A stretch of DNA of 64,000 nucleotides. It comes from an uncultured Acidobacteriota bacterium (GTDB taxonomy: Bacteria; Acidobacteriota; Thermoanaerobaculia; Multivoradales; UBA5704). The notes under the pieces are model-generated. The model did no database searches. It had not been told where the DNA came from and worked only from the letters and a program-made list of their open reading frames with translations. A program made the position numbers and the translations under genes. Location of the stretch: positions 26,597 to 90,596 of the forward strand of contig CAVWOZ010000017.1 of NCBI GenBank assembly GCA_963756595.1, written 5' to 3'. The first letter of the stretch is position 1. The number at the start of each line of letters is the position of its first letter. This document shows positions 16,641 through 64,000 of the stretch, in pieces.

Positions 16641-16700
16641 GGGTTCTCGGGTCTCCGCGGAGGAATATACCCGAGGTGTCAAGGGGGAGAGCTCGCAGGG

Positions 16701-32110: not shown

Positions 32111-32833
32111 TTGGACCCACTCCCCCGCCGCCGACCGAAGTCCGGAAACGCCGCCTTCCCCGCCTCCGGCGGCGGGATGCGGGCGCTGTTCCTGGGGAGC
32201 AGCCTCACCTACGCCAACGACATGCCCTTCATCGTGCAGGCGATGGCGCGGGCGATCGGCAAATCGCTCGACGTCGCCGTGGTGGCGCAGGGCGGGGCCA
32301 ACCTCGAGGACCAGTGGCACCGCGGCGAGGCGCTGCGCAAGATCAAGGAGGGGGGGTGGAGCTTCGTGATCCTGCAGCAGGGGCCGTCGACGGTGCCGGA
32401 GAACCGCGAGAACATGCGGGAGTACACGCGCCGCTTCGCCGAGCCGATCCACAAGGCGGGAGGCCGGCCGGCGCTCTACATGGTCTGGCCGAGCGCCGAC
32501 CGCATGGCCTGGTTCGACGAGGTCCGCAAGTCCTACACGCTGGCCGCCGAGGACGTCGGCGGCATGCTGATCCCGGCCGGCGAGGCCTGGCGGGCGGCGT
32601 GGCGGCGCGATCCCGACGTTTCCCTGCTCAAGCGCGACGGCGTCCACCCCACCCCGGCGGGGTCGTTCACGGTGGCGCTGTCGATCTTCGGCATGCTGTT
32701 CAGCCGCTCGCCGGTGGGGCTGCCGGCGCGCGTGAGGCTGCGCCACGGCGCCTTCGCGCAGGTGGCGCCGTCCCTCGCGCCCCTCCTCCAGGACGCGGCC
32801 GCCGAAGCCAACGACCAGTACGGCCTGCGATGA
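32111..32833 (+). CDS. SGNH/GDSL-like hydrolase family protein (DUF4886-like), paralog 1
   Basis: Block I ALFLGSSLTYAND (a GNSL-like motif) and a DxxH-like C-terminal motif (DGVHPTPAG). TTG start at 32111 preceded by a TAGGAGA SD; the alternative ATG is at 32177. No signal peptide is evident. Confidence 0.5.
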   Translation: MDPLPRRRPKSGNAAFPASGGGMRALFLGSSLTYANDMPFIVQAMARAIGKSLDVAVVAQGGANLEDQWHRGEALRKIKEGGWSFVILQQGPSTVPENRENMREYTRRFAEPIHKAGGRPALYMVWPSADRMAWFDEVRKSYTLAAEDVGGMLIPAGEAWRAAWRRDPDVSLLKRDGVHPTPAGSFTVALSIFGMLFSRSPVGLPARVRLRHGAFAQVAPSLAPLLQDAAAEANDQYGLR

Positions 32834-32885
32834 ACCCCCACGGCGCGATCCCGCGCTCCATCCATCACCCATGGGAGACCGGCAG

Positions 32886-33765: not shown

Positions 33766-36156
33766 CTAGTACAGGAAGGCGTAGCCGATCTTCACGAAGA
33801 AGGAACGGTCGGTCTGCGTCAGGGGGATGCCGAAGATCCCCTGCCGGGTGTTGGTGTAGCCGGTGAACAGCACGGTCTGCGGGTTGATCTTGTAGGAGAA
33901 GAGGAACTGCCCGAAGAGGTTCTTGTCGTGCCGCTCGACTGGGAAGGTGTAGAGGTCGGGGTCGCGGCTGATGTCCTGGTACTGGATGATGGCGCGCACG
34001 AAGGTGCGGACGTTGAACTGGTAGACGATGCGCGCCTGCGAGAGCTGGGCGTCGAACAATTCGCCCCCGGCCACGCGCAGCTTCTCGTCCTCGTAGGAGC
34101 CGGTGAGCTGGAGGTGATCGCCGAGGCGGATCTGCGCCGAGGGGAGCCAGGTCACCGAGCGCGCCGGCCGCGTGTTGTCGAAGTCGATGTCGTCGCCGAA
34201 CTGGGTGGAGAGGCTGAGCTTGAGCCCGCCCGTCGGGTTGAAGGTGAAGTTGACGAGTTGCTGGTCGTAATCGAAGGTGACCCCGTTGAAGAACGTCTTG
34301 TTCTGGTAGTAGTGGGCGTCGAGCGCCGACTGCAGCGGCCCGGCGTAGGTGCCGTAGAGCTCGACGGTCTGGTCGGTCAGCGTCCCCTGATGGTCCTCGG
34401 TGCGCAGGGCGTGGAGGCCGACGCTCGCCTGCGCGTACCAGCCGCCCCGGCGATCGCTGTAGAAGTCGCGCTCGATCTCCCCCTCGGAGGTCTTGATGTC
34501 GACCCGCGGGATGAAGCCGCTGTCGGCGCGGAAGCCGGGGCCGAGGTCCTCGTAGGTGGCGAAGCCGCGCCAGGTGCGCGAGATGTGGTTGTACTGCAGG
34601 TGATAGGCGTCGTCCTGGAAGGCGTTGACCGACTGATCGTTGCGCTGCGCGACGGCCAGCGGATACTGGGTGTCCGAGCGCAGGTACTGGACGCGCACGG
34701 TGTCCGACGGGGTGAGGCGGAAGAAGCCGTCGAGCCCGCCCAGCCGGTTGTGGTAGTCGTCCCCCTTCCCCTCGCGGTCGGTGTAGAGGACGCCGAGCGT
34801 CGAGCGGTCGCCGACGTCGCGCCGGTAGCGCACCACGCTGCTGTCCACCTTGTCGTCGAGGAAGGCGAACGAGGAGTTCTGGTTCGAGGGGATGATCAGG
34901 TTGTTGAGGGCGTCCTGCGCCACGAACAGGCCGAGGGCGTTCTTCCCCTCCTTGGCGTTGACCTTGATCCCCCAGTCCGGGTCGGCCACCGTGCGGGTGA
35001 AGACGGCCTGGAGCGGGGTCAGGAAGAGGTCGGCCCCCTCGAGGAAGAACGGGCGCTTCTCCGGGTAGAAGAGGGCGAAGCGGGTGTTGATCGCGAGCTG
35101 GGCGACGTCGGCCTCGACCTGCGAGAAGTCGGGGTTGACCGCCGCTTCGAGCGAGACGTTCGGGGTGACCCCCCAGCGCGCGGTGATGCCGGGGTCGACC
35201 TTCGACTTGTCCTTCTGGAGATGCCCGTCGGGGAAGGAGTCGAGGGTGTCGCTGCGCAGGCCGGTCAGCGTCGGATCGAGCTCGAGGTTGCGGCCGGGCG
35301 CGATCCCCTGGAAACCGGAGATCTTGTTCTCTTCGCAGAGGGTGCAGTCCTTGGCGCGGTCGGTGTGGCGCGAGGAGATGCGGTGGCGGACGTTGCGCGG
35401 ATAGCTCCGGAACATCTCGATCCCCCAGGTCTGCGCCGCCGCGGTGCGCGGGAAGCGCAGCTGGCGGAAGGGGATGGCGACCTCGGCCACCCAGCCGTCG
35501 GCGGTGATCCGTCCGGCGGAGTTCCAGATCGCGTCCCAGGAGAAGTCCTCCACCCCGTTGGCCTCGGCGAACACGCCGTCGACCTGCACGCCGAGCGGGT
35601 TGACGCGGAACTGGAAGGCGCGCCGCTCGTCGTTGAAGGTGTCGATCTGGAAGCCGACGTGGTCGTCCTGAACGAACGGTCCGGTGGCGTCGCGGTCCAT
35701 GTAGTGGGCGCGGATCGCCTTCGGATCGGGGTCCTGGCAGCGGAAGGCGACGTAGAGGTTGTCGCCATCGTAGGTGACCAGCGCCTCGGTCTTCACCGGC
35801 GGAGTGACGTTGTCGCCGGGGTACCACTCGTAGGGAAGATCGATCACCGTCGCCGTCTTCCAGGCGTCCTCGTCGAGGATGCCGTCGATCTTGATCGGCG
35901 TCGTGGCGCGGGTGACCTGGAACTGGCGCAGCCCGATGGCCTCCGGCTGCGGCGGGACCGGGTGCTCGGGCACCGGCGGGGTGAGGTGCTCGGGCTGCGG
36001 CACGGCGGGCATGGCGGGCTGCGCCTGGGGCTGGGCCGGCGCGGGCGGCTGGGCCGGCGCGACGGTCTCCTGCGCCCGGGCGCCGCCGGCGAGCAGGGCG
36101 GCGAGCCCGGTGGCGGCGAGCAGACCGGTGCGGATTCTATGCATAGAGGCTCTCAT
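33766..36156 (-). CDS. Outer-membrane protein with N-terminal CBM9/DOMON-like domain and DUF5916 beta-barrel
   Basis: Signal peptide (MRASMHRIRTGLLAATGLAALLAGGARAQE) and a Pro-rich linker. The CBM9-like region is IKIDGILDEDAWKTATVIDLPYEWYPGDN...NLYVAFRC. The C-terminal residue is aromatic (...IGYAFLY), an OMP beta-barrel signature. The longest ORF runs to 36210. Confidence 0.55.
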   Translation of the reverse strand: MRASMHRIRTGLLAATGLAALLAGGARAQETVAPAQPPAPAQPQAQPAMPAVPQPEHLTPPVPEHPVPPQPEAIGLRQFQVTRATTPIKIDGILDEDAWKTATVIDLPYEWYPGDNVTPPVKTEALVTYDGDNLYVAFRCQDPDPKAIRAHYMDRDATGPFVQDDHVGFQIDTFNDERRAFQFRVNPLGVQVDGVFAEANGVEDFSWDAIWNSAGRITADGWVAEVAIPFRQLRFPRTAAAQTWGIEMFRSYPRNVRHRISSRHTDRAKDCTLCEENKISGFQGIAPGRNLELDPTLTGLRSDTLDSFPDGHLQKDKSKVDPGITARWGVTPNVSLEAAVNPDFSQVEADVAQLAINTRFALFYPEKRPFFLEGADLFLTPLQAVFTRTVADPDWGIKVNAKEGKNALGLFVAQDALNNLIIPSNQNSSFAFLDDKVDSSVVRYRRDVGDRSTLGVLYTDREGKGDDYHNRLGGLDGFFRLTPSDTVRVQYLRSDTQYPLAVAQRNDQSVNAFQDDAYHLQYNHISRTWRGFATYEDLGPGFRADSGFIPRVDIKTSEGEIERDFYSDRRGGWYAQASVGLHALRTEDHQGTLTDQTVELYGTYAGPLQSALDAHYYQNKTFFNGVTFDYDQQLVNFTFNPTGGLKLSLSTQFGDDIDFDNTRPARSVTWLPSAQIRLGDHLQLTGSYEDEKLRVAGGELFDAQLSQARIVYQFNVRTFVRAIIQYQDISRDPDLYTFPVERHDKNLFGQFLFSYKINPQTVLFTGYTNTRQGIFGIPLTQTDRSFFVKIGYAFLY

Positions 36157-36237
36157 CGAAAGTTCGTCTCCAGAAAAAATCGGATCGAAAACGGAGGGCG
36201 GGGGCGGCACCTGCGCGGCGCGCCCCCGCCTCCTCGC

Positions 36238-37629
36238 TCAGGCCTGGGCGGGAGCCGCCTCGTCGGGGACGTCGGCCGCCGCCTCGGGCTCCGGCTCCGG
36301 CTCCGGCGCCTTCCGCTTGGGGGCGTCGGGAAGCTCGGCCTCGACGTTGCGCACGCGCGGGTTGAGCAGCCCCATCAGGGCGACGAGCGCGGGGACCAGC
36401 GCCATCGAGACCATCAGCAGGCCGATGCCGCGGCCGGGACCGACGCCGATCACCCGGCCGGCGACCGTGCCGGCGAGCACGCCGCCGACCATCATCGCCG
36501 GGTTGAAGATCTTGTCGGCCAGCGGGCCGGCCGAGAAGTCGCCGAGCGGTACGGTGAACTGGGCGATCATGCGGCGCACCGCGAAGACCCGCCCCTGGAC
36601 GTCGCCCGGGGTCTTGCTCTGCCAGATCGCCTGGCTCGAGGCGTTCATGATCGGCAGGCCGATGTACCAGAGCAGCACGCCCGCCCCCACCATGTAGATG
36701 TTGGGACGCAGGCCGATGATCACGAACCAGACGCCGAGCGCCGCCCAGGCGCCGAGCACGCCGTAGATCCGCTTCTTGGGGCCGCCGGTGGCGGTCATGA
36801 TGGCGCCGCCGATCAGCGTGCCGACGCCGACCAGACCCATGATCGTCCCCACCGCCGCCTCGTTGGCGAAGGCCGCGATCATCGGCAGGATGGCGACGCC
36901 GCACATCGACATCACGAAGTTGATCAGGGCGAACAGGAGGAGGAGGTTGAAGAGGCCCGGCCGCTCGCGGATGAAGGTCCAGCCGAACGCCGCCTCCTTC
37001 CAGATCGAGCCCTTGGCGCGCTTCCCCTCCTCGCTCTGCTCCGGCCGCGGCACGTGCACGAACAGCAGCGCGCCGGCGGCGAACAGGAAGGTGACGAAGT
37101 CGATGACCAGGATCTTCGCGATGCCGCCGAAGATGACCATCAGGAAGCCGCCGATGGCGGGGCCGGCGATGGTGGTCGCCGAGCCGGCGAACTCGAGGAA
37201 GCCATTGACCCGCCCGTAGTCCTTGGGCTGCACCAGCAGGGTGATGGCCGCGATGTAGGCCGGCCACTGGAAGGTTGCGATGATCGAGTTGAAGATCACC
37301 CCGATGTAGATGTGCCAGACCTGGAGCTGGTTCTGCGACAGCAGGTAGGCGTAGGTTCCCACCGTGATCGCCGGGCCGATGCTGCACCAGAAGAGGACCC
37401 ACTTCCGGTCCCAGCGGTCGACGAGGGCGCCGGCGATCGGCCCGATGAAGATCCCGGGGAGCCCCGCGAAGACGATCGTCAAGGTGAACTGGGTCACCGA
37501 GTGGGTGTGCTTGAGCACCCACAGGCTGAGCGCGAAGCTGGTCAGCCCGGAGCCCATCAGGGAGACGAACTGTCCCACCCAGATGATCACGAACGTCTTG
37601 AAGGCACTGCTTTCTTTTGGTTCTGACAT
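36238..37629 (-). CDS. MFS transporter (EntS/macrolide-exporter-like), probable peptide exporter
   Basis: 12-14 TM helices and the MFS motif GALVDRWDRK. Lies immediately downstream of the last NRPS gene on the same strand, 55 bp away. Confidence 0.8.
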   Translation of the reverse strand: MSEPKESSAFKTFVIIWVGQFVSLMGSGLTSFALSLWVLKHTHSVTQFTLTIVFAGLPGIFIGPIAGALVDRWDRKWVLFWCSIGPAITVGTYAYLLSQNQLQVWHIYIGVIFNSIIATFQWPAYIAAITLLVQPKDYGRVNGFLEFAGSATTIAGPAIGGFLMVIFGGIAKILVIDFVTFLFAAGALLFVHVPRPEQSEEGKRAKGSIWKEAAFGWTFIRERPGLFNLLLLFALINFVMSMCGVAILPMIAAFANEAAVGTIMGLVGVGTLIGGAIMTATGGPKKRIYGVLGAWAALGVWFVIIGLRPNIYMVGAGVLLWYIGLPIMNASSQAIWQSKTPGDVQGRVFAVRRMIAQFTVPLGDFSAGPLADKIFNPAMMVGGVLAGTVAGRVIGVGPGRGIGLLMVSMALVPALVALMGLLNPRVRNVEAELPDAPKRKAPEPEPEPEAAADVPDEAAPAQA

Positions 37630-37684
37630 GTTTTCCCTTTGCTCGCGGAGCCGCGCCGAGCGGTCTCGTGAAAATGGTGGAAAC

Positions 37685-40600
37685 TCAGGAGGCGGCGCCG
37701 GCGCCGCGGGTCCGATAATCGTTGACGAACCAGCGCAGCACCTCGCGGCAGTGCGCCGCCAGCGCCTGCACCGTTTCGACCTTGTGCAGGTTGGTGTTGT
37801 GCTCCCACTTGATCAGCAGCTTGTCCTCGATGACGTAAGCGCCGATGGTGATCGGGCAGAGCCGCTTGGTGCCGCGGTCCTGGTGATAGCCGCCGAACAT
37901 CTGGAGCTTGCGCAGCCGCTCGAGCTCCTTGGCGTTGTCGGGGCCGAGGTAGTTGAAGAAGACCTGCGGCTCGAGCGCCTTGTGCATGTGGTCGACGACG
38001 TCCGGATCGGTCGAAAGATAGCGCAGCAGCCCGAAGCCCGTGCCGCCGTGCGGGATGCGCCGCAGCTGGCGGTTGAGCTCGCGGGCGCTGGCGATCCAGT
38101 CCGGGTCGGGACCGAGGTCGAGGAGCACCGGATAGATGGTGTTGAACCAGCCGATGCTGCGCGTCAGGTCCATGTCGTCGTAGAGCGCCTCGCGGCCGTG
38201 GCCGAGGAGGAGGATGGGGAGCGAGCGCGAGCCGATCCAGCGCTCGAAGGCGGTGAGCACGGCGGCGACCAGCACGGCGTCGATCTGCACGCCGAGGAAG
38301 CGCGGCACCTGCTGCAGCAGGATCTGGGTCTCCTCGAGGTCGAACTCGGCGGGCTGGAAGCGCGCCGAGATCCAGTCGTTCGGCCCCAGCTCGTGATCCA
38401 TCGGGAAGCGCGGCGGATTGATCGGCGCCTGCGCCAGCCAGTAGTCGAGCTCCTGCTGCGGCATCCCCCCCGGCTTCGCCCGCGCCGCCAGCCGCTCGGC
38501 CCACTGCTGCGCCGAGGTGGTCTTGCGCGGCACCGAGATCGCCTCCCCCGCCTCGAGCTGCCGGTAGGCGGCGTCGAGGTCGTCGAGCAGCATCTGCCAG
38601 GAGTTGATGTCGGCCGCCATGTACTGCCCGGTGATGTGAAGAAAACGGATCTTCCCCGGCTGGAGATCGAACATAACGGTACGAATCAGGTTGCCTTCCG
38701 CCATTTTGCAGCTTATCACGAGCTCGCGGACCGCCTTCGACATCACCAGCATCTGCTGGTCCTCGGCGACCTCGGAGAGGTCGACCCGCAGCAGGTTGAC
38801 CGGCGCGCCCGGCGGGTCGATGACGAGCGAGAGGCCCTTCCCCGCGACTCCCTCGCTCTCCTCGCCGACCACCCGCACCCGCAGGTTGTCGTGGTGGCGC
38901 ATGACGTGCTCCATCGCCGCCTGGAAGAGGTGGAACTGGAGGTCGCCGTCCTTCGGCTCGAACAGCATGCCGATCGTGTGGTAGTCGGGGTTCGGGTGGT
39001 GCTGGTCGAGGAAATGGAGCTGCGCCGGCGTCCAGCCGACCGCCCCGGTGACCGGACCCTGCTCGGCGACGATCTCGATGGTGCCGGCGACGGCGGCCAG
39101 CTCGGCGACCGTGCGGTGCTGGAAGACCTGCTTGGTGGTGATCCCCATCGCCGCCTTGTTCGCCTTGGTGACCACGCGGATGACGAGGAGCGAGTCGCCC
39201 CCCAGCTCGAAGAAGTCGTCGTTGATCCCCACCCGCTCGAGCGAGAGGAGCTCGGCCCAGAGGGCGCAGAAGAACTCCTCCTTCTCGTCGCGCGGCGCCA
39301 CGTACTCGCGGGCCGCCGAGGCGCGGTCGGGGGCCGGCAGGGCGCGGCGGTCGACCTTGCCGTTGGGGGTCAGCGGCATGGCGTCGAGGAAGGTGTAGAC
39401 CGCCGGCACCATGTACTCCGGCAGCTTCTCCTTGAGATAGGTGCGCAGGTCGGTGACGTTCGGCTTATCAGTACCGGCGGCGGTCACCAGATAGGCGGCG
39501 AGCTGCTTGCTGCCGGGCGAATCCTCGCGCGCCACCACCACCGACTGGCCGACCGCCGGATGGTGGTCGAGGGCGGCCTCGATGTCGCCGAGCTCGATGC
39601 GGAAGCCGCGCACCTTGACCTGGTGGTCGATGCGGCCGAGGAACTCGACGCGGCCGTCGGCGAGATGGCGCGCCAGATCGCCCGTGCGGTAGAGGCGCGC
39701 TCCCGGCTCCTCGACCAGCGCGGCGAACGGATGCGGGATGAACTTCTCGGCGCTGAGGTCCGGGCGCCCCCGGTAGCCGCGGGAGAGGCCGGCGCCGCCG
39801 ATCAGCAGCTCGCCCGGCACCCCGGCCGGCACCGGCTTGAGCTGGCGCGAGACGAGGTAGATCTCTGTGTTGTCGAGCGGCCTGCCGATGGTGATCGGCC
39901 CGGACGAGCCGACCTGGTCGAGGGTCGACCAGATCGTCGCCTCGGTCGGGCCGTAGACGTTCCACAGCGAGCCGCAGGCGGCGAGCAGCTGGCTCGCGAG
40001 GTCGCGCGGCAGCGCCTCGCCGCCGCAGAGGATCTTCAGGTCGCGGTCGCCGAGCCACCCCGCGGCGAGCAGCAGCCGCCAGGTGGCGGGGGTCGCCTGC
40101 ATGGCGGTGACCCCCTTCTGCTCGAGGACCTCGCGGAGCTTCTCCCCCGCCTGCGTGGTCTCGCGGGTGACCAGGATCAGCCGCGCGCCGCAGACCAGCG
40201 GCAGGTAGAGCTCGAGCCCCGCGATGTCGAAGGAGAGGGTGGTGACGGCGAGCAGGGTGTCGGCGCTGGTCAGCCCCGGGCGCTTGCGCATCGAGTTGAG
40301 GAAGTTGACCACCGCCGAGTGCGGGATCTGCACCCCCTTCGGCTTCCCCGTCGACCCCGAGGTGTAGATCACGTAGGCCACGTTCCCCGCCTGGACGCCG
40401 GCGTCGAGGGGGTCGGCGCTCTCGGCGGCGATCGCCGCCGCGTCGCGGTCGACCGCCACGATCCGCGCGCCGTGCTCGGGGAGGCGCTCGATCAGGTGTT
40501 CCTGGGTGAGGAGCACCGGTACCCGCGAGTCGTCGAGCATGTGGGCGAGGCGCTCCTTCGGGTACTCGGGGTCGAGCGGCACGTAGCCGCCCCCCGCCTT

Positions 40601-42340
40601 GAGCACCGCGAGCACCCCGGCCAGCATGTCGAGCGAGCGCTCCATGGCGAGGCCGACCAGCGTCTCCGTCCCCACGCCGTGGCGGCGCAGGTGATGGGCC
40701 AGGCGGTTGGCCCGCTCGTCGAGCTGGCGGTAGGTCAGCCGGCTCTCCTCGAGCTCGACGGCGACGGCGTCCGGGGTCTCCCGCACCCGTTCCTCGATCC
40801 AGCCGTGGAGGGTGACGGCGGGGACCTCGGCCGCGGTGGCGTTCCAGTCGACCAGCACCTGCCGCCGCTCCTCGTCCGAGAGCAGCGGCAGCTCCGAGAG
40901 GTGGAGTCCGGGGTGCGCGATCACCGCCGCCAGCACCCGCCGGTAGTGGTCGAGCAGGCGCTCCATGGTGCCGCGCTCGAAGAGGTCGGTGTTGTACTCG
41001 AGGAAGCCGTCGATGCCGGTCGGCGTGTCGGTGAAATAGAGGGTCAGCTCGGTCTTCGAGGTGCGGCTGTCGATCGCCACCGGCTGCAGCTTGAGCCCCG
41101 GCAGGTCCATCGCCTCGCCGGGGGCGTTCATCAGGATCAGCATCACCTGGAAGAGCGGCGTGCGGGCCATGTCGCGCGGCGGGTTGAGCTCCTCGACGAG
41201 CTTCTCGAACGGCACGTCCTGATGGGCGTAGGCGTCGAGCGACACCTCGCGCTCGCGCCCCAGCAGCTCGCGGAAGGTCGGGTCGCCGGAGAGGTCGCTG
41301 CGCAGCACCAGGCTGTTGGCGAAGAAGCCGATCAGCACCTCGATCTCCGGCTGGCGGCGGTTCGCGATCAGCGTGCCGACCGCGATGTCCTCCTGGGTGG
41401 TCCAGTGATGGAGGAGCGCCTTGAAGGCCGCCATCAACGCGATGAACAGGGTCGACCCCTCGCGCTGCGCGAAGGCCTTGAGGTCGCCCGCCAGACGGTC
41501 GCCGAGCACCAGCGGGATGGCGGTGCCGTTGTGCGAGCGCACGGCCGGGCGCGGGTGGTCGGTCGGCAGCTCGAGCGGCGGCACCGAGCCGAGCTGGCGG
41601 CGCCAGAAGGCGAGCTGCGCCTCGAGCACCTCGCCGGAGAGCCACTCCCGCTGCCAGACCGCGAAGTCGAGGTACTGGATGGGGAGGTCGAGCAGCGTCG
41701 AGGGGATGCCGGCCGCGAAGGCGTCGTAGATCGCCGCCAGCTCGCGGGCGAAGATCCCCATCGACCAGCCGTCGTAGGCGATGTGGTGCACGTTGTAGTA
41801 GAGCAGGTACTCGCGCTCGCCGGCGCGGAAGAGCTTGGCGCGCATCAGCGGCCCGAGGGTGAGGTCGAACGGCTCGCGGGCGTCGGCGGCGGCGAGACGC
41901 AGCGCCTCCCCCCAGGCGTCGGCCGGGTCGCTCACCCGCGGCCGCGCGTCGACGTAGGGGACCTCCATGTCGACCACCTGCGCGATCACCTGCGCCGGCG
42001 TCCCCTCGATCGAACGGAAGGTGGTGCGCAGCGTCTCGTGGCGGCGCACCACCTCGCGGAGCGCCTTCTGCATCACCTCCGGATCGAGCTCGCCGACGAT
42101 GCGGAAGGCCTGCGGGATGTTGTACTCCGGGCTCTCCGGCTCGAAGTTGTTGAGGAACCAGAGTCGCTGCTGGGCGAAGGAGAGCGGGTAGGTCTCGCTC
42201 TCGCGGGGCTGGCGCGGGATGCGCTTCGCCTCGCCGGCCGGCTTCTCCTTTTCCCGCTGTTTCTGGAGCTGCTCGAAAAGGAGCATGCGCTTCTCGAGCG
42301 GCAGCTCGGCGATGCGCTTGGCGATTTCTGTTTCCGTCAT
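37685..42340 (-). CDS. NRPS, final module: C-A-T plus terminal condensation-like domain
   Basis: N-terminal docking helix, then a C domain (YPLSFAQQRLWFL). A-domain core motifs are YTSGSTGKPKG, NVYGPTE, YRTGDLAR and VKVRGFRIELGDIE; T-domain motif is FFELGGDSLL. The C-terminal roughly 450 aa form a C-like domain with a degenerate His motif (LHITGQYMAADINSW). No thioesterase domain is present. Hand-extracted specificity code DILQLGVIWK matches the Gly code DILQLGLIWK at 9 of 10 positions. Confidence 0.9.
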   Translation of the reverse strand: MTETEIAKRIAELPLEKRMLLFEQLQKQREKEKPAGEAKRIPRQPRESETYPLSFAQQRLWFLNNFEPESPEYNIPQAFRIVGELDPEVMQKALREVVRRHETLRTTFRSIEGTPAQVIAQVVDMEVPYVDARPRVSDPADAWGEALRLAAADAREPFDLTLGPLMRAKLFRAGEREYLLYYNVHHIAYDGWSMGIFARELAAIYDAFAAGIPSTLLDLPIQYLDFAVWQREWLSGEVLEAQLAFWRRQLGSVPPLELPTDHPRPAVRSHNGTAIPLVLGDRLAGDLKAFAQREGSTLFIALMAAFKALLHHWTTQEDIAVGTLIANRRQPEIEVLIGFFANSLVLRSDLSGDPTFRELLGREREVSLDAYAHQDVPFEKLVEELNPPRDMARTPLFQVMLILMNAPGEAMDLPGLKLQPVAIDSRTSKTELTLYFTDTPTGIDGFLEYNTDLFERGTMERLLDHYRRVLAAVIAHPGLHLSELPLLSDEERRQVLVDWNATAAEVPAVTLHGWIEERVRETPDAVAVELEESRLTYRQLDERANRLAHHLRRHGVGTETLVGLAMERSLDMLAGVLAVLKAGGGYVPLDPEYPKERLAHMLDDSRVPVLLTQEHLIERLPEHGARIVAVDRDAAAIAAESADPLDAGVQAGNVAYVIYTSGSTGKPKGVQIPHSAVVNFLNSMRKRPGLTSADTLLAVTTLSFDIAGLELYLPLVCGARLILVTRETTQAGEKLREVLEQKGVTAMQATPATWRLLLAAGWLGDRDLKILCGGEALPRDLASQLLAACGSLWNVYGPTEATIWSTLDQVGSSGPITIGRPLDNTEIYLVSRQLKPVPAGVPGELLIGGAGLSRGYRGRPDLSAEKFIPHPFAALVEEPGARLYRTGDLARHLADGRVEFLGRIDHQVKVRGFRIELGDIEAALDHHPAVGQSVVVAREDSPGSKQLAAYLVTAAGTDKPNVTDLRTYLKEKLPEYMVPAVYTFLDAMPLTPNGKVDRRALPAPDRASAAREYVAPRDEKEEFFCALWAELLSLERVGINDDFFELGGDSLLVIRVVTKANKAAMGITTKQVFQHRTVAELAAVAGTIEIVAEQGPVTGAVGWTPAQLHFLDQHHPNPDYHTIGMLFEPKDGDLQFHLFQAAMEHVMRHHDNLRVRVVGEESEGVAGKGLSLVIDPPGAPVNLLRVDLSEVAEDQQMLVMSKAVRELVISCKMAEGNLIRTVMFDLQPGKIRFLHITGQYMAADINSWQMLLDDLDAAYRQLEAGEAISVPRKTTSAQQWAERLAARAKPGGMPQQELDYWLAQAPINPPRFPMDHELGPNDWISARFQPAEFDLEETQILLQQVPRFLGVQIDAVLVAAVLTAFERWIGSRSLPILLLGHGREALYDDMDLTRSIGWFNTIYPVLLDLGPDPDWIASARELNRQLRRIPHGGTGFGLLRYLSTDPDVVDHMHKALEPQVFFNYLGPDNAKELERLRKLQMFGGYHQDRGTKRLCPITIGAYVIEDKLLIKWEHNTNLHKVETVQALAAHCREVLRWFVNDYRTRGAGAAS

Positions 42341-42382
42341 CTGTAAATCTCCTGTCGTTACCCTTGCGAAGCGCGGAGCCGT

Positions 42383-45300
42383 TCAGCCCGGCAGGCCTTC
42401 CATCTCGCGCAGCAGCCTGGCCAGCAGGTCGTCGTCGGCCCGCGCCAGCTCTTTTTGAACGATCGCCTCGGCGAGTCCGGCCACCGTCGGGCTGTCGAAG
42501 ATGACGCGCAGCGGCAGCTCGATCGCGAAGGCGTCGCGCATCCGCGACAGCACCTGCGTCGCCATCAGCGAGTGGCCGCCCAGCTCGAAGAAGTTGTCGT
42601 GCGCCCCCACCCGCTCGAGGCGGAGCACCTCGGCCCAGATCGCCGCCACCTTCTCCTGCACCGCCCCCTCGGGCGGCACGAAGTCGCGCCCCAGCTCGGG
42701 ACGGGCGCCGTCGGGGGCCGGCAGCGCCTTCCGGTCCACCTTGCCGTTGGCGGTCAGCGGCAGAGCCGGCAGCGCCACGAACCACGACGGGATCATGGGC
42801 TCCGGCAGCGCCTCCTTGAGCGCCGCGCGCAGGTCGGAGACGGTGAGCGGCTGTGCCGCTGCCTCGTCCGCCGGCACGTAGTAGGCGGCGAGCTGCGGGT
42901 TGCCGGGCGTGTCCTCCCGCACCATCACCGTCACCCCGGAGATCGCCGGCAGGCGCGAGAGGGCCGCTTCGATCTCCCCCAGCTCGATGCGGAAGCCGCG
43001 GATCTTCACCTGGTGGTCGATCCGCCCCAGGTACTCGAGGTCGCCGTCCGGCAGGCGGCGCGCCAGGTCGCCCGAGCGGTAGAGGCGGGCGCCGGCCGGG
43101 CCGAACGGATCGGGGACGAAGCGCTCCGCCGTCAGCTCGGGCCGGCCGAGGTAGCCGAGGGCCACCCCTTCTCCACCCACCACCATCTCCCCCGGCACGC
43201 CGACCGGCTGCACGCTGAGAGCCGCGTCCACGATGTGGAGGGTGAGGTCGGGGATCGGCACGCCGAGCACGCTCCCCCGCCCGGCGGCGAGGTCGGCGCG
43301 GCGGATCGGCCGGTAGGTGACGTGGACGGTGGTCTCGGTGATGCCGTACATGTTGACCAGCAGCGGCCGCTCGTCGCCGTGGCGCGCGAACCAGGGGGCG
43401 AGCGAGGGCAGGTCGAGCGCCTCGCCGCCGAAGATCACCCGCCGCAGGGCGAGCGACGGTGCGGCCCCGGCGAGGACCGTCTCCTCCGCCCACAGGAGCT
43501 GGCGGAAGGCGGACGGCGTCTGGTTGAGCACCGTCACCTTCTCAGTCGCCAGCAGGGCGTAGAACGCCTCCGGCGAGCGGCTCTCCCAGTAGGGGACCAC
43601 CATCAGCCGGCCGCCGTAGAGGAGCGCTCCCCAGATCTCCCACACCGAGAAGTCGAAGGCGTAGGAGTGGAAGAGGGTCCACACGTCCTCGGGGCCGAAA
43701 GCGAACCACGGGGCGGTGGCGCTGAGCAGACGGGTGACGTGGCCGTGCGGGATCACCACCCCCTTCGGGCGGCCGGTCGAGCCCGAGGTGTAGATCACGT
43801 AGGCCGGCAGCTCGGCGTCGGCCGGCACGCCGGCGCTCGTCGGCTCGCGGGCGGCGATCGCCGCCGCCTCGGCCGCGAGGTCGATCACCTTCAGCCCCGG
43901 CCGCTGCGGCAGGGAGGCCGCCGCTTCCCCCTGGGTGAGGACGACGGCGACGTGGCTGTCCGCCAGGGCGAAGGCGAGGCGCTCGGCGGGGTACGACGGG
44001 TCGAGCGGCAGGTAGCCGGCGCCCGCCTTGAGCGTCGCCACGATCGCCACCACCAGCTCGAGCGAGCGCTCGAAGCAGAGCCCCACGAGGTCCCCCGGCC
44101 GCACGCCGGCGGCGAGCAGGTGGCGGGCGAGGCGGTTGGCCCGCTCGTCGAGCTCGCGGTAGCTGAGGGCCTCCGCGCCGAGCGACACCGCGGGCCGGTC
44201 GGGGGTCTGCTCCGCCTGCGCCTCGAAGAGGCGGTGGATCGGGGCCCGTCCCTTGTCCAGGGGCACCGCCGCCGGGTTCCACTCCGCCACCATCTGATGG
44301 CGCTCGGCTTCACCGAGCAGCGGCAGGTCGGCGATCCGCGCCGGCGCCTCGGCCAACATACCCGTGAGCAGGTGGACGAAGGAGAAGCAGAGGCGGCTGA
44401 TCGTCGCCGGATCGAACAGCTCGGTGCTGTACTCGACGTCGAAGATCGTCCGCTCGCCATCGGCCTGCACGGCGAGGGTGAGGTCGAACTTCGCCGTGCC
44501 GCTGGCGGCGCCGAGCGGCGTCACCCGCAGCCCCTCGGCCACGAAGTCCCGGCGGGCCAGGTTCTGGAACGCCAGCACCACCTGGAAGAGGGGCGAATGG
44601 CTCATGCTGCGCTCGGGCGACAGCTCCTCGACCAGCTTCTCGAACGGCACGTCCTGGTGGGCGTCGGCGTCGAGCACCGTCTCGCGGAGGCGCTCGACGA
44701 GGGCGCGGACCTCGTCCTCGCCGGCGACGTCGCAGCGCATCACCAGGGTGTTGACGAAGAAGCCGATCAACGGCTCGATCTCCACCCGGTTGCGGCCGGC
44801 GACCGGCACCCCGACGGCGAAGGTCGATTGGCCGCTGAAGCGATGGAGCAGCGCCGCGAAGCCGGCGAGGAGGACCATGAACGGCGTCGCCGCGAGGCGC
44901 CGCCCGGCGAGCTTCAACGCCGCGGAGAGGTCGCTGCCGAGGGCGATCCGGCGCCCGGCGCCGCGCCGGCTGCGCACCGCGGGGCGCGGGCGGTCGGTGG
45001 GGAGCTCGATCAGCGGCGGCAGGCCGGCGAGCCGCTCGCGCCAGTGCGCCAGCTCCGCCGCCAGCGTCTCCCCCGAGAGCCAGCGGCGCTGCCAGTGGGC
45101 GAAGTCGGCGTACTGGATGGGCAACGCCGGAAGAGACGCGGGCTTGCCCAGGGTCAGCTCGGCGTAGAGGGCCGACATCTCGTGCACGAAGATCGGCAGC
45201 GACCAGCCGTCGCTGACGATGTGGTGCAGGGTGACCAGGAGGACGTGCTCCTCGCCCCCCAGGCGCAGCAGGGTCGCACGCAGCAGGGGGCCGTGGTCGA

Positions 45301-48300
45301 GCGAGAACTGCAGCCGGCTCTCGACGGCCATGCACACCCGCGCCTCCCTCCCCCGCCGCGCCTCCTCGAGGGCGCTGAGGTCGACCACCGGCAGGGCTCC
45401 GGGAACTGGCGGATGGACCACTTGCAGCGGCAGCCCGTCGACGGCCGTGAAGGTGGTGCGCAGCGCCTCGTGGCGCCGCACGATCCCGTCGATCGCCCCG
45501 GCCAGCGCGGCGACCTCCAGCGCTCCTTCGAGGTGGAGCGCCATCGGGATGTTGTAGGTGGCGCTCTCCGGCTCCAGGCGGTCGAGGAACCAGAGGCGCT
45601 GCTGCGAGAACGACACCGCCAGCGCCTCGCCGCGCGGCACCGGCTCGATCCGCGGCGGCCCCGCGACCTCGCCAGCGGCGCCGGCGCGGCGGATCTCCTC
45701 GATGGTGCGGGCGAGCCCGGCGAGGGTGGGATTGTCGAACAGGGCGCGCAGCGGCAGCTCGACGCGGAACTGCTCGCGTGCCCGGGAGATCACCTGGGTG
45801 CCGAGCAGCGAGTGGCCGCCGAGGTCGAAGAAGTCGTCGTGGGCGCCGGCCCGCGGCACCCCCAGCACCTCGCACCAGATCCCCTCGAGGATCTCCTCGG
45901 CCGCCGTGCGCGGCGCCACGTACCCCCCCTCGCTCTCGGCGTGCTCGTAGACGGGCTCCGGCAGGGCGCGCTGGTCGACGCGGCCGTTCGAGGTCAGCGG
46001 CAGGGCGTCGAGCAGCACCACGGCGGCGGGGATCATGTGCTCTGGGAGACTCTCGCGGAGGAAGTCGCGCAGCTCGCGGACCGTCGCCTCCGTCCCCGGC
46101 ACCAGCGTCGCGTAGCCGACCAGCCGCTTCCCCAGCCGGCCGTCGCTGCGCACCAGGACGATGCTGTCCTTCACCGCCGGGTGGCGCGCCAGCACCGCGC
46201 CGACCTCCGCCGGCTCGACGCGGAAGCCGCGGATCTTCACCTGGTCGTCGCGCCGCCCGAGGTACTCGAGGTCGCCGGTCGGCAGCCAGCGGCCGACGTC
46301 CCCCTGGCGGTACATGCGCAGCCCCTCGCCGTAGCCGAGGCTGGCGGCGAACGGGTCAGGGAGGAAGCTCGCCGCCGTGCGGTCGGGCCAGTTGGCGTAG
46401 CCGCGCGAGACGTTGGGGCCGCCGATGTAGACGTCCCCCGCCACCCCCGCCGGCACCGGCTCGAGCGCGGCGTCGAGCACGTAGGCGCAGCAGTTGTGGA
46501 TGGTGCGGCCGACCGGCACGCGGTCGCCGGCGCGGAAGCGCGCCAGGTCCTCGACGCCGGGCTGGTAGACCACGGCGGTGACCGTCGCCTCGGTCGAGGC
46601 GTAGCTGTTGTTGAGGGCCACGCGGTCGCCGACCAGCGCGAGCCACTCCGCCACCCGCTCGGGGAGCGCCTGCTCGGTGCCGATGACGACCAGGCGCAGC
46701 GGCTCCGGCGGCGGCGTCATCGCCCGCGCCAGCTCCCCCACCCACTCGTGCCAGTAGGCGGTCGGCAGGTCCATGGCGGTGATCCCGTAGCGCTCGATCA
46801 GCTGCCAGAGCTCGCCGAACGACGGGAAGAGGCCCGGCGGACGCGGCACCACGGCGCCGCCGTGGATCCAGGTCGGGAAGATCTCCTCCGAGGTGATGTC
46901 GAAGCTGATCGAGGTGAACTGGAGAGTGCGGTCGCGCGGCCCCATGCGGTAGGCGAGGCCGCAGGCGGTGACGTGGTTGATCATCGCCCGGTGCGGCACG
47001 GCGACCCCCTTCGGCCGCCCCGTCGAGCCCGAGGTGTAGACGATGTAGGCGAGGCTCTCGGGGTCGATCTCCCAATCCGGCGCCTCCGCGCTCTCCGCCG
47101 AGAGATCGAGGCCGTCGACAGCGATCACCGCCGGCCCGCCGGCGAGCGCGGGGAGGCGGTCGGCGAGGTGCGACTGGATGAGCAGCACCGGCATGGCGGT
47201 GTCCTCGATCATCAGGGCGAGGCGCTCCTGCGGATACTCGGGGTCGAGCGGCACCCAGGCGCCCCCCGCCTTGAGCACGGCGAGGAGGACCAGCGGCATC
47301 TCGAGCGAGCGCTCGACGCAGACGCCGACCGACATCTCGGCCCCCACCCCCAGCCGGCGCAGGCGGCGGGCCAGGCGGTTGGCCTGCGCCTCGAGCTCGC
47401 CGAAGGTGAGCACGCGGTCGCCGAAGAGGACGGCCGGCGCGTCGGGGTTCCGGCGCGCAGCCTCTGCGACGCGGTCGAGGATGGTGGCGGGAGCTCCGGC
47501 GTAGCGCTGGTTCCAGTCGACCAGGATCTGCCGCCGCTCCTCCGGCAGCAGCATCGGCAGCTCGCCGACCCCCCGCTCGGGGGCGGCGAGGACGGCCGCC
47601 AGCAGGGTCTCGAAGTGGCCGGCCATGCGCGCCACCGTCGCCCGCTCGAAGAGGTCGGTGCTGTACTCGAGATAGCCGCCGAGGCCGCCGGGATGCTCGA
47701 ACATCTCGAGGGTGAGATCGATCTTCGCGAGCCCGCGGTCGACCGGCAGGCTCGACAGCGCCAGCCCCGGCAGGGCGAGCGCGCCGCCGCCACCACCCAT
47801 GGCGTTCTGGAGCGCGAAGACCACCTGGAAGATGGGGTTGTGCGACAGGTTGCGGTCCGGCTGCAGCTCCTCGACCAGCTTCTCGAAGGGGAGGTCCGAG
47901 TGGCCGAAGACGGCCAGCGCTTCGGCGCGCACGCGGCCGAGCAGGGCGAGGAACCCCTCCTCCGGCCGCAAGGTGGCGCGCACCAGCAGGGTGCTGGCGA
48001 AGCAGCCGACCACCCGCTCGTGCTCGGTGCGGTTGCGGTTGGCGACCGGCACCCCGACCACGAAGTCGCCCTGCCCCGTATAGCGGAAGAGGAGGAGGTC
48101 GAAGAGGGTGAGGAGCGCCATGAACGGCGTCGCCCCCGCCCCCTGGGCCAGCGCCTTGAAGCGAGCCGCGGCGGGATCGGGGATCTCGAAGCGCACCGCG
48201 TCGCCGCGCGGCGAGGCCATGTGGCGCCGGGGATGGTCGGTGGGGAGCTCGAGGACGGTGGGCGCTCCCTCCAGCCGCTCCCGCCAGAAGGCGATCTCCT

Positions 48301-48999
48301 GGCGCAGCGCCTCGCCGTGCAGGCGCTGGCGCTGCGCGCGGGCGAAGTCGGCATAGCTCGCCCGCAGCGCCGGGAGGTCGGGCTTCCCACCGGTGGCAAA
48401 GGCAGAATAGAGCGCGGCGAAGTCGCGCAGGATCAGCCCCACCGACCAGCCGTCGCTGACGATGTGGTGGTGGCAGAGCAGGAGCACGTGCTCCTCGCCC
48501 CCCAGACGCAGCAGCGTGGCGCGGAAGAGCGGCCCGCGGGCGAGGTCGAACGGCCGGCGCGACTCCTCGCCGGCGAGCGCCGTCGCCCGCTCCAGGGCCT
48601 CCTCCGGCGCCAGTCCGGTGAGATCGACGACCCTGACCAGAGGGCCGGCACCCGGAAGCTCACGCTCGACGCGCTGCACCGGCTCCGCCCCCTCGAGAGG
48701 GAAGCGGGTGCGCAGCGACGCGTGGCGGCGGACCAGCCCGTCGAGCGAGCGCTCGAGCGCCCCGCGGTCGAGGACCCCCGTCAGGCGCAACGCCCGGAAC
48801 ATGTTGTCGAGGTAGCTGCCGGGGTCGAGCTGGTCGAGGAACCAGAAGCGCTGCTGCGCGAAGGAGAGCGGATAGTCCCCCGGCTCGGCCGCCGATACCG
48901 CGGGAGGGGCGCCGCCCATCGCCTTTTCACGGGCGAGGCGGGCGACGAGGGCGAGCTTCTCCTCGCGCGAGAGGTTGGCGAGATCGGCCGGGGCGACGC

Positions 49000-49003
<4 letters not shown>
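42383..49003 (-). CDS. NRPS, two modules (C-A-T-C-A-T)
   Basis: The real start is a GTG at 49003 overlapping the upstream gene's TGA (GTGA); the protein begins MSVAPADLANLSREEKLALVARLAREKA. C domains carry HHIVSDGWS motifs. A1 has a non-canonical A5 (NSYASTE) and the code DIEDVGSVTK (acidic pocket). A2 reads DFWNIGMVHK, an exact match to the Thr code. It ends with a COM-like tail. The 3789-aa ORF listed for this frame is an upstream artifact. Confidence 0.9.
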
Positions 49004-55551
<6,548 letters not shown>

Positions 55552-55566
55552 AGTAGGGATGACTCC

Positions 55567-64000
<8,434 letters not shown>

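What the first reader, a model, noticed from the sequence alone, without database searches (positions are those of the whole stretch)
37685..39040. Terminal condensation-like domain with a degenerate HHxxxDG motif on the last NRPS module
Downstream of the final T domain (FFELGGDSLL) come about 450 aa with C-domain architecture, but the catalytic motif reads LHITGQYMAADINSW rather than HHxxxDG. C-terminal C-like domains catalyse chain release onto amines or via cyclisation in a minority of bacterial systems and in fungal NRPSs. Together with the absence of a TE, this points to an unusual offloading chemistry.
Basis: partly seen in the sequence, partly recalled or inferred. Interest (0 to 1): 0.6.

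Follow-up and report, generated by a model that had tools for sequence, protein, structure and literature searches.

The report
Dead epimerase domain ending an NRPS
The last domain of this peptide-making enzyme is a relative of the epimerization domain that has lost its catalytic residues, sits behind a glycine module, and ends an assembly line with no visible release domain, so how the peptide leaves is still open.

Summary
After the last carrier domain (FFELGGDSLL) of the minus-strand NRPS gene 37685-42340 come 461 aa with a condensation-superfamily fold, and LHITGQYMAADINSW lies where HHxxxDG should be.

The domain is not a C or fungal CT-like domain. By sequence and by predicted fold it is an epimerization (E) domain. 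Both acid/base residues are replaced: second His to Tyr, Glu of EGHGRE to Leu.

The same losses occur in all 33 related sequences that cover the His motif, mostly Acidobacteriota MAGs. In every case that could be read, the domain follows a Gly-specific adenylation domain and an E-type carrier domain (GGDSL). It always ends the last NRPS gene and is followed by an MFS exporter gene. It is under purifying selection.

One distant relative whose whole cluster could be read has seven modules and no TE, reductase or PBP-type cyclase. The upstream end of the window's own cluster could not be reached.

Best reading: a catalytically dead E domain kept as a non-catalytic partner of the last carrier domain, with release done by something else. 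Direct release by this domain is possible but unsupported. It is a new variant of known kinds: the inactive E domain of LgrA and SurE-type TE-less lines ending in an E domain.

The parts
37688..39070 (-). Terminal E-like domain (E*), aa 1091-1551 of NRPS protein D. It has an epimerization-domain fold and both acid/base residues are replaced.
   Evidence: PDB sequence hits are all E domains. It also hits TIGR01720. AF2 pLDDT is 88. The top 13 Foldseek hits are E domains.
38597..38626 (-). QYMAADINSW, the degenerate counterpart of HHxxxDGxSW (second His to Tyr, Gly to Ile, Asp/Ser/Trp kept).
   Evidence: Alignments; coordinates.
38189..38206 (-). LGHGRE, the counterpart of the E-domain motif EGHGRE with the first (catalytic) Glu replaced by Leu.
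   Evidence: The Glu is invariant in the 8 canonical E domains compared and is Leu or Val in the E* clade. The spacing to the His position is 139 residues, as in GrsA H753/E892 and TycA H743/E882 (PMC8905534).
37943..37960 (-). FFNYLG, a retained E-domain motif (Asn/Tyr kept).
39092..39271 (-). Last carrier (T) domain, of the E-partner type with core GGDSLL. All seven other T domains in the window have GGHSL.
   Evidence: GGDSL is conserved in the relatives.
39356..40795 (-). Adenylation domain of the last module. Its specificity code DILQLGVIWK is read as glycine.
   Evidence: The same residues occur in 29 related loci (28 identical, one Val to Met). The code-to-Gly assignment is from my own knowledge of the Stachelhaus code.
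40856..42199 (-). LCL-type condensation domain of protein D, preceded by an N-terminal docking helix (aa 1-47, nt 42200-42340).
42383..49003 (-). NRPS protein C (C-A-T-C-A-T). Its GTG start overlaps the stop of B (GTGA). Its C-terminal tail DDDLLARLLREMEGL matches the docking helix of D.
49000..55551 (-). NRPS protein B (DCL-A-T-LCL-A-T). Its first C domain is the only DCL-type one in the window.
55567..64000 (-). NRPS protein A, partial (…C-tail, A-T, C-A-T, C-A-T). It runs off the window.
36238..37629 (-). MFS exporter (MFS_1/MFS_3, EntS/Mef-like). An MFS gene lies downstream of the E*-ending gene in nearly every relative that extends far enough, usually directly after it.
33766..36210 (-). 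CBM9/DUF5916 protein with a signal peptide and a C-terminal …YAFLY, so it looks like an outer-membrane protein. It is conserved with the cluster in the Acidobacteriota loci.
32111..32833 (+). DUF4886-like protein with a GSSLT motif, apparently SGNH-like, possibly cytoplasmic. It is a weak candidate for a trans-acting hydrolase and occurs only in the closest relatives.
31026..32045 (+). VioC/GntD-family Fe(II)/2-oxoglutarate arginine (or enduracididine) beta-hydroxylase, a likely building-block supplier.

Best explanation
The domain is a catalytically disabled epimerization domain (E*). Its module loads glycine, which has no alpha stereocentre. Epimerase chemistry is therefore useless there, and both acid/base residues (the second His of HHxxxD and the Glu of EGHGRE) have been replaced by hydrophobic residues. 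The domain has not decayed. It is kept under purifying selection together with an E-type carrier domain. It most likely still receives the phosphopantetheine arm and acts as a non-catalytic partner of the last carrier domain, holding or presenting the finished peptidyl-Gly thioester at the end of an assembly line that has no TE. Offloading itself is then done by something other than acid/base catalysis in this domain. Candidates are a trans-acting hydrolase or cyclase (for example the small SGNH-like protein at 32111-32833, or an enzyme encoded elsewhere) or attack by the peptide's own free N-terminal amine on the unhindered Gly thioester. Shown: the domain type, the residue losses, the Gly association, the terminal position, the conservation, and the lack of a TE in the window and in one complete related cluster. 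Inferred: that it is inactive, that it still binds the carrier domain, and who performs release.
For: Domain type: all 10 listed PDB sequence matches are E domains (PvdL 6e-51, BacC, GrsA, TycA, TycB). The top 13 Foldseek hits are E domains (TM 0.84-0.89), against about 0.72 for C domains. Scores against the window's own C domains are 45 bits or less. Residue losses: [HQ][YF]xxxD[IV][NGA]S[WLY] and [LV]GHG[RK]E occur in the window and in all related sequences that cover these motifs, while more distant canonical E domains keep HH..DG and EGHGRE. His753 is essential in GrsA and Glu892/Glu882 is the proposed partner (PMC8905534). Gly association: the last A-domain code is DILQLGVIWK in the window and the same residues occur in 29 related loci (28 identical, one Val to Met); three representative-library family members read by eye, including P0398, show the same Gly pattern. 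Carrier type: GGDSL only in this T domain. Constraint: dN/dS is 0.16 for E* against 0.11-0.14 for C/A/T in the closest pair, and mean amino-acid identity is 66% against 75-85%. Terminal position: the protein stops at the end of the last E-domain helix, with no TPSDF/COM-donor tail. The docking tail of protein C and the N-terminal helix of D are co-conserved. TE-less: for the window; for the complete 7-module cluster on contig_9742. Precedent: LgrA carries an inactive E-like domain after its Gly module (PMC10510592).
Against: Inactivity is inferred from sequence only. Purifying selection shows that some function exists but not which one. No releasing enzyme is conserved across all loci. The SGNH-like genes occur only in the closest relatives. 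The 470-aa alpha/beta-hydrolase-like genes occur only in some distant ones, and at least one of those has a signal peptide. In a line that truly has no other release enzyme, the terminal domain is the obvious suspect, which favours the rival. The upstream end of the window's own cluster was not seen.
Confidence: 0.55

Rival explanations
1. E* is itself the offloading catalyst. It would be a repurposed E fold that releases the peptidyl-Gly thioester by head-to-tail macrolactamisation or hydrolysis. It would use substrate positioning or residues other than the canonical His/Glu, for example the clade-specific His19, Asn310 or Asn333, or the retained His/Arg/Glu of GHGRE.
For: It is the terminal domain in TE-less lines. 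One complete related cluster shows no TE, R or PBP-type cyclase gene; its only hydrolase-like genes are a 472-aa alpha/beta-hydrolase-like gene and a frameshifted second copy. Selection is purifying. The thioester is always on Gly, which is unhindered and good for cyclisation. The one line seen from its start begins with A-T, so its N-terminal amine is free. Clade-specific conserved polar residues exist. C-type release domains are known (fungal CT; PMC10510592).
Against: Every characterised C-superfamily release domain needs the His that is missing here, and the replacement alternates between Tyr and Phe, so it is not a conserved functional group. The former Glu is Leu or Val. There is no large insertion or deletion relative to E domains that would suggest a new acceptor route. 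E* evolves faster than the catalytic domains beside it.
Confidence: 0.2
2. Protein D is not the last module. As in LgrA to LgrB, the dead E domain after Gly would be an inter-protein junction that hands the chain to the DCL-type condensation domain at the N-terminus of protein B. Gene order would then differ from assembly order.
For: The window has exactly one E-type domain and exactly one DCL-type C domain (B, 54169-55530). B starts with a COM-acceptor-like MSKQNVEDIYPLSASQQGMLFH. No E domain precedes this DCL in the window or in relatives. LgrA is a precedent (PMC10510592).
Against: E* lacks any COM-donor tail. The tails of B and C and the N-terminal helices of C and D form two matching, co-conserved pairs, which leaves A to B, B to C and C to D as the only order in which every docking element has a partner. 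Genes B and C are translationally coupled. The P0398 cluster has E* but no DCL in its five visible modules. In the complete 4-protein cluster, the order G1-D-B-C would still be TE-less and would leave the tail of C unpaired.
Confidence: 0.1
3. E* is a recruitment platform like the glycopeptide X domain. It would bring a trans-acting tailoring or release enzyme (methyltransferase, hydrolase) or the MFS exporter to the carrier-bound peptide.
For: It is a dead C-superfamily domain on the last module, as the X domain is (PMC10510592). An MFS gene lies downstream in nearly all loci that extend far enough, usually adjacent, including the distant P0398 cluster. A methyltransferase gene lies directly after E* in L014 and L016, and L015, L017, L019 and L020 show the same extra gene-sized gap.
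Against: Besides the MFS, no partner enzyme is conserved across the family. The hydroxylase present is of the VioC type, whose characterised members act on free arginine (my own knowledge; family assignment). The fold is much closer to E than to X (4tx2 is rank 39). Nothing here tests binding.
Confidence: 0.1

Closest known systems
[quoted passage not shown]
   Same: An E-type domain regarded as inactive, placed after a Gly-loading module at the C-terminus of an NRPS protein (PMC10510592).
   Different: LgrA is the first protein of its line and hands the chain to LgrB, and release is by a terminal reductase. Here the domain appears to end the whole line, has no COM-type tail, and no release domain is seen.
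SurE-type (PBP-type thioesterase) TE-less NRPSs of the desotamide/surugamide family
   Same: The terminal module ends in T-E with no TE. The C-terminal residue is a D-amino acid or Gly. The line starts with a free N-terminal amine and the product is cyclised head to tail (PMC7459860).
   Different: Their E domains are described as conferring the C-terminal D-configuration, and a beta-lactamase-fold cyclase gene sits in the cluster. Here E is dead. No such gene was found in the window, in 10 kb downstream of 32 relatives, or in one complete related cluster. The producers are Actinobacteria, not Acidobacteriota.
Glycopeptide X domain (Tcp12, PDB 4TX2)
   Same: A C-superfamily fold with a degenerate His motif on the last module, with a non-catalytic (recruiting) role.
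   Different: The X domain lies between T and TE and recruits Oxy P450s. Here there is no TE and there are no P450 genes. The fold match is much weaker than to E domains (E about 1e-23 against 1e-37).
Fungal terminal condensation (CT) domains (e.g. TqaA) and the bacterial C-like hydrolytic release domain of crocacin CroK (recalled from memory, not read here)
   Same: A C-superfamily domain after the last T domain in place of a TE.
   Different: CT domains keep and need the second His (SHxxxDx; PMC10510592). E* lacks it and belongs to the E branch, not the C branch.

Membership tests
NRPS epimerization (E) domain | Sequence and fold closest to E domains among the C-superfamily subtypes | tested here: met
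   E domains give E = 6e-51 and TM 0.84-0.89. C, X, Cy and CT domains give TM about 0.75 or less.
NRPS epimerization (E) domain | Catalytic second His of HHxxxD | tested here: not met
   Tyr here, and Tyr or Phe in all relatives.
NRPS epimerization (E) domain | Glu of EGHGRE (GrsA E892 / TycA E882) | tested here: not met
   Leu here, and Leu or Val in all relatives. It is invariant Glu in canonical E domains. The mapping rests on alignment and on the 139-residue spacing.
NRPS epimerization (E) domain | Preceded by an E-partner carrier domain (GGDSI/L core) | tested here: met
   GGDSLL in this T domain only.
NRPS epimerization (E) domain | Acts on a chiral aminoacyl or peptidyl thioester and is followed by a DCL-type C domain or COM donor helix | tested here: not met
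   The module code reads Gly. The protein ends at the last E helix with no COM tail or downstream C domain.
Terminal condensation-like release domain (fungal CT / bacterial C-terminal C) | C-superfamily domain directly after the last T domain of the line, replacing the TE | tested here: met
Terminal condensation-like release domain (fungal CT / bacterial C-terminal C) | Retained catalytic His in the (S/H)HxxxD motif | tested here: not met
Terminal condensation-like release domain (fungal CT / bacterial C-terminal C) | Release activity on a peptidyl thioester | not testable with these tools
   This needs an in vitro assay.
LgrA-type inactive E domain | Degenerate E domain after a Gly module | tested here: met
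   PMC10510592.
LgrA-type inactive E domain | Serves as the junction to the next synthetase (DCL acceptor) | tested here: inconclusive
   One DCL exists (B), but the docking elements and gene order point to C feeding D as the last step. A relative has E* without a visible DCL.
SurE-type TE-less NRPS | Terminal module T-E without a TE, and a C-terminal Gly or D-residue | tested here: met
   PMC7459860.
SurE-type TE-less NRPS | Beta-lactamase/PBP-fold cyclase encoded in the cluster | tested here: not met
   None among the annotated genes of the window. None among the downstream genes scanned in five relatives, and no extra genes upstream of MFS and DUF5916 in most others. None in the complete contig_9742 cluster. 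The upstream end of the window's own cluster was not seen.
Glycopeptide X domain | Located between T and TE and recruits P450 oxygenases | tested here: not met
   There is no TE and there are no P450 genes. 4tx2 is only rank 39.

The most novel reading that the evidence does not exclude
The E* domain defines a new offloading module. It would be an epimerase fold stripped of its acid/base pair that releases a peptidyl-Gly thioester in TE-less NRPSs, either by templating head-to-tail cyclisation or by coupling the loaded carrier domain to a partner such as the nearly always neighbouring MFS exporter. The module would be widespread in Acidobacteriota and present in at least one other lineage.
Probability: 0.2. 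Interest if true: 0.75.

Novelty: new variant of a known kind. Interest (0 to 1): 0.4.

Why it matters
NRPS lines without a TE are the cases where new release chemistry has been found, such as CT domains, reductases and SurE cyclases. Here a recognisable module, C-A(Gly)-T-E* followed by an MFS gene, recurs in more than 30 species-level genomes of an uncultured, poorly studied group. It ends lines that show no release enzyme wherever the whole cluster can be read. If E* only holds the chain, it is a clear natural example of a catalytic domain kept as scaffold, and a warning for automated 'E domain means D-amino acid' predictions. If it takes part in release, it would add a new His-independent member to the C-superfamily repertoire. 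The motif pair [HQ][YF]xxxD[IV]xSW plus LGHGRE gives a simple way to flag such domains.

Tried and rejected
1. Finding the window's own genome. An exact 61-mer search of genome contigs gave nothing, and an exact lookup of protein D gave nothing.

2. Reaching the upstream end of the cluster.
- Two homologue searches with gene A segments and a metagenome scan returned no orthologues on long contigs. The word-indexed searches listed only proteins shorter than about 1000 aa.
- Walking with ids from the listing of cluster members worked. It reached the cluster start on the distant relative contig_9742.
- The 387-aa and 241-aa 'genes' called there are antisense artefacts.

3. TE detection by tblastn with three TE domains and by motif regex found nothing. 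Divergent hydrolases could escape this test.

4. dN/dS for distant pairs is unreliable because dS is saturated or biased at about 95% GC3. Only the closest pair was used.

5. I considered a dual E/C domain for B_C1 and rejected it, because no HH[IL]xxxxGD motif is present.

6. I considered the VioC-like hydroxylase as a partner recruited by E*. I rejected this because characterised members of that family act on free arginine (my own knowledge; family assignment).

7. I considered the 470-aa alpha/beta-hydrolase of some relatives as a universal trans-TE. I rejected it because it is absent from the window and from the close relatives, and at least one copy has a signal peptide.

Full report
**1. 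What is there**

The window is about 70% G+C. Codon-position G+C and Pfam scans show four co-directional NRPS genes on the minus strand:
- A, 55567 to beyond 64000, which runs off the window: …C-tail, A-T, C-A-T, C-A-T.
- B, 49000-55551: C-A-T-C-A-T.
- C, 42383-49003: C-A-T-C-A-T. Its GTG start overlaps the stop of B.
- D, 37685-42340, 1551 aa.

Protein D is C-A-T followed by 461 further residues (aa 1091-1551, nt 37688-39070). This is the finding. The strings FFELGGDSLL and LHITGQYMAADINSW are present as described.

Downstream on the same strand lie two genes:
- an MFS exporter (36238-37629);
- a CBM9/DUF5916 protein (33766-36210) with a signal peptide and an outer-membrane-like C-terminus.

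On the plus strand lie three more genes:
- two paralogous DUF4886-like proteins with a GxSLT motif that looks like an SGNH hydrolase block I motif (32111-32833 and 32871-33680);
- a VioC/GntD-family arginine/enduracididine beta-hydroxylase (31026-32045).

Below about 30 kb the genes look unrelated to the NRPS cluster: Mla, alanine racemase, DnaB, TIR-NB-ARC-TPR, RND efflux, citrate synthase.

No TE, reductase or MbtH domain was found in the NRPS proteins. Motif searches in all six frames of the window also found none.

**2. What kind of domain it is**

It belongs to the condensation superfamily, but to the epimerization branch.
- All 10 listed PDB sequence matches are E domains: PvdL E2 at 6e-51, bacitracin synthase 3, GrsA, TycA and TycB3.
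- It also hits TIGR01720.
- An AlphaFold2 model built on 20 sequences has pLDDT 88 and pTM 0.85.
- Its first 13 Foldseek matches in the PDB are E domains (E 1e-38 to 1e-34, TM 0.84-0.89). C domains, the X domain, a Cy domain and the HtmB2 CT domain follow at E of 1e-26 or weaker and TM about 0.62-0.74.
- Against the seven C domains of the same window it scores 45 bits or less.
- The preceding carrier domain has the GGDSL core. I know this core as typical of carrier domains that serve E domains. The other seven T domains of the window have GGHSL.

**3. The active site**

In register, HHxxxDGxSW reads QYMAADINSW, and EGHGRE reads LGHGRE.

The idea of a 'single His positioned catalytically' therefore does not apply.

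In GrsA, H753A abolishes epimerisation, and E892 (E882 in TycA) is the proposed acid/base partner, located in the peptide …IVIHLEGHGRE (PMC8905534). The His-to-Glu spacing is 139 residues in GrsA and in TycA. The Tyr-to-Leu spacing here is also 139. On this basis the first Glu of the motif is the one lost. This step is an inference from spacing and from its invariance in canonical E domains.

Asp, Ser and Trp of the His motif are retained. So are GHGRE, the Asn-Tyr of FNYLG and the RxxPxxGxGYGxLRYL block.

**4. It is a family, not an accident**

A scan of one genome per species found 32 Acidobacteriota MAG loci (Thermoanaerobaculia and Holophagales) with the same terminal domain at 42-93% identity. 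It also found one canonical E domain in a betaproteobacterium.

The shared features are as follows:
- Every sequence that covers the motifs (window and L001-L032) has [HQ][YF]xxxD[IV][NGA]S[WLY]; those through L033 have [LV]GHG[RK]E.
- The specificity residues of the last A domain match in the 29 loci where they could be read: 28 identical and one Val to Met. In the better alignment the code reads DILQLGVIWK, which I recognise as the glycine code.
- Wherever the frame could be read, the protein stops at the end of the last E-domain helix. It lacks the TPSDF linker and COM-donor helix that canonical terminal E domains carry.
- An MFS gene follows the NRPS gene in nearly all loci that extend far enough, and a DUF5916 gene is present in nearly all Acidobacteriota loci. 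In a few loci the order differs or one gene was not seen (L012, L013, L018).
- A methyltransferase gene lies next to the cluster in some loci. The VioC-like and DUF4886-like genes occur only in the closest relatives.

The exhaustive representative search added more members. One of them, P0398, has a visibly different amino-acid composition. Its architecture is the same: docking helix, C, A (Gly pattern), T (GGDSLL) and E* (HFMLADIGSW, LGHGKE). It is followed by an MFS gene and then HlyD/MacB genes.

The domain is under purifying selection.
- Against the 93% relative, dN/dS is 0.16 for E* and 0.11-0.14 for C, A and T.
- It does evolve faster than its neighbours. Mean identity across 23 orthologues is 66% for E*, against 75% for C, 78% for A and 85% for T.

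**5. Is it really the end of the line, and is there really no TE?**

Docking elements support the gene order.
- The C-terminal tails of B (…DDELDALLGSMLAEE…) and C (…DDDLLARLLREMEGL…) resemble each other.
- The N-terminal helices of C (…LSREEKLALVARLAREKA) and D (…IAELPLEKRMLLFEQLQKQREKEK) also resemble each other.
- The C tail and the D helix are co-conserved across loci.
- Protein A has a different, acidic tail. B starts directly with a COM-acceptor-like MSKQNVEDIYPLS…GMLFH.

The order A, B, C, D is the only one in which every element has a partner.

I could not reach the upstream end of the window's own cluster. By walking along two metagenome contigs I obtained the following.

(a) The complete cluster of a distant family member, contig_9742. 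Its order is:
- a DUF4350-TauD fusion gene;
- A-T-C-A-T;
- DCL-A-T-C-A-T;
- C-A-T-C-A-T;
- C-A(Gly)-T-E*;
- MFS;
- a 472-aa alpha/beta-hydrolase-like gene;
- DUF5916;
- a methyltransferase.

Oppositely oriented redoxin and EamA genes mark the upstream border. This cluster has seven modules, an A-T start (so a free N-terminal amine) and no TE, R or PBP-type gene.

(b) The close relative contig_9689, whose NRPS continues for at least four or five more modules upstream without reaching the start.

The 'no TE' statement is therefore firm for the window itself, for 10 kb downstream in 32 relatives, and for one whole related cluster. It remains open for the unseen 5' part of this lineage's cluster.

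**6. The odd DCL domain**

The first C domain of B is the only DCL-type one. Its best PDB matches are McyB, the C after the E domain of BacC, PvdL C3, SrfA-C and TycB1, while LCL-type domains match about 1e-30 or weaker. All other C domains are LCL-like.

No E domain and no dual E/C motif precedes it. The preceding module differs between relatives: Pro-like, Ala or Ile.

One E-type domain plus one DCL invites the LgrA/LgrB reading, with D feeding B. Three things argue against it: the missing COM tail, the docking logic, and a relative that has E* but no visible DCL. I keep this reading as a minor rival and record the DCL as unexplained.

**7. Mechanism**

The best-supported reading is a fossil epimerase. 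With Gly on the carrier domain there is nothing to epimerise, and both catalytic side chains have become hydrophobic. The replacement alternates between Tyr and Phe, so no new functional group is conserved there.

Purifying selection, together with retention of the E-type carrier motif, indicates that the T-E* pair still works together. It most likely does so as a non-catalytic cap that holds or presents the final peptidyl-Gly thioester.

Release would then be the work of one of the following:
- A trans-acting enzyme. The only candidate in the window is the small, possibly cytoplasmic SGNH-like protein at 32111-32833. It is not conserved family-wide.
- Intramolecular aminolysis by the free N-terminus. 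A C-terminal Gly is exactly what SurE-type head-to-tail cyclisations tolerate in place of a D-residue (PMC7459860).

Because no release enzyme is conserved across the family, the possibility that E* itself promotes release cannot be dismissed. I give it about 0.2.

**8. Comparison with what is known**

Dead E domains after Gly are known (LgrA; PMC10510592). TE-less lines ending in T-E are known (SurE family; PMC7459860). Dead C-superfamily domains with scaffolding roles are known (the X domain).

What is different here is the combination:
- a dead E domain as the very last domain of a TE-less line;
- always on Gly;
- conserved across a class-level group of uncultured Acidobacteriota and at least one other lineage;
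- with no cognate cyclase in sight.

I rate it a new variant of known kinds. It is of moderate interest, mainly because the offloading step of this family is unexplained and can now be tested directly.

Noticed in passing
window 54169-55530 (-), N-terminus of NRPS protein B: This is the only DCL-type condensation domain in the window, and it has a COM-acceptor-like N-terminus. No E or dual E/C domain precedes it. The preceding module reads Pro-like here and Ala or Ile in relatives. The source of a D-configured donor, if there is one, is unexplained.
   Followed up: partly
window 31026-32045 (+): A VioC/GntD-family Fe(II)/2-oxoglutarate L-arginine or enduracididine beta-hydroxylase (NCBIfam 2e-139; PDB VioC/OrfP 4e-87). 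It suggests a hydroxy-Arg or capreomycidine/enduracididine-type residue. Modules B1 (DTEDIGTIVK) and C1 (DIEDVGSVTR) are candidate loaders.
   Followed up: partly
window 32111-32833 (+) and 32871-33680 (+): Two paralogous DUF4886-like proteins with a GxSLT motif that looks like an SGNH hydrolase block I motif. The second has a lipoprotein-type signal (…LLFGCAG) and the first may be cytoplasmic. They occur only in the closest relatives, next to the hydroxylase.
   Followed up: partly
window 33766-36210 (-) and 36238-37629 (-): A CBM9/DUF5916 protein (signal peptide, C-terminal …YAFLY, outer-membrane-like) and an EntS/Mef-like MFS transporter. Both are conserved with the E*-ending NRPS gene in essentially all Acidobacteriota loci. 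The role of the DUF5916 protein (export pore, receptor) is unknown.
   Followed up: partly
window 9164-14263 (+): TIR / NB-ARC / TPR (STAND NTPase-like) coding segments in at least two pieces (9164-10726 NB-ARC; 10975-11517 TPR; 11638-14226 TIR-NB-ARC; 12815-14263 TPR). G+C is lower in 10-12 kb. This could be duplicated or frameshifted defence-type genes.
   Followed up: no
window 28396-29535 (-) and 30239-30823 (+): A complete citrate synthase gene on the minus strand, and on the plus strand about 700 bp away a second ORF that matches only the C-terminal half of citrate synthase (profile positions 172-357). This could be a truncated or frameshifted paralogue.
   Followed up: no
window 14937-16682 (-): A response-regulator receiver domain fused to a pyridine nucleotide-disulphide oxidoreductase (581 aa).
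   Followed up: no
L118 16052-17470 and 21027-22485; L022 16679-17971; L027 15198-16598; L031 5875-7164: A protein of about 470 aa, alpha/beta-hydrolase-like (GYSxGG), lies next to MFS/DUF5916 in several distant family members. It is duplicated in L118, with one copy frameshifted. The L027 copy has a signal peptide. It is absent from the window.
   Followed up: partly
L121 2999-4882; L013 1-186: A DUF4350-TauD fusion gene lies directly upstream of an NRPS gene in contig_9742. In L013 its C-terminal part lies directly upstream of a C-A-T-C-A-T gene, so the position of this gene relative to the NRPS genes may differ between clusters.
   Followed up: no
P0034, P0035 (Streptomyces sp. MH13 and TP-A0356): Free-standing T plus E-like proteins (580-603 aa) with a different degenerate active site (HQ[IL]AFDMVSW, LRHGRE). 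This is an independent case of an E fold lacking the second His and the Glu.
   Followed up: no
P0381 (representative library): A PKS-type KR-T protein followed by two tandem E-like domains with degenerate motifs (HHLVSDHPS with no EGHGRE; NHMAIDAYS). It is unrelated to the E* clade.
   Followed up: no
L122 579-1742 (-) and 1-469 (-); window e.g. 37364-42346 (+): Long Arg/Pro-rich antisense ORFs opposite NRPS coding sequence. On contig_9689 two of them were called as genes, which falsely suggested a cluster border.
   Followed up: yes
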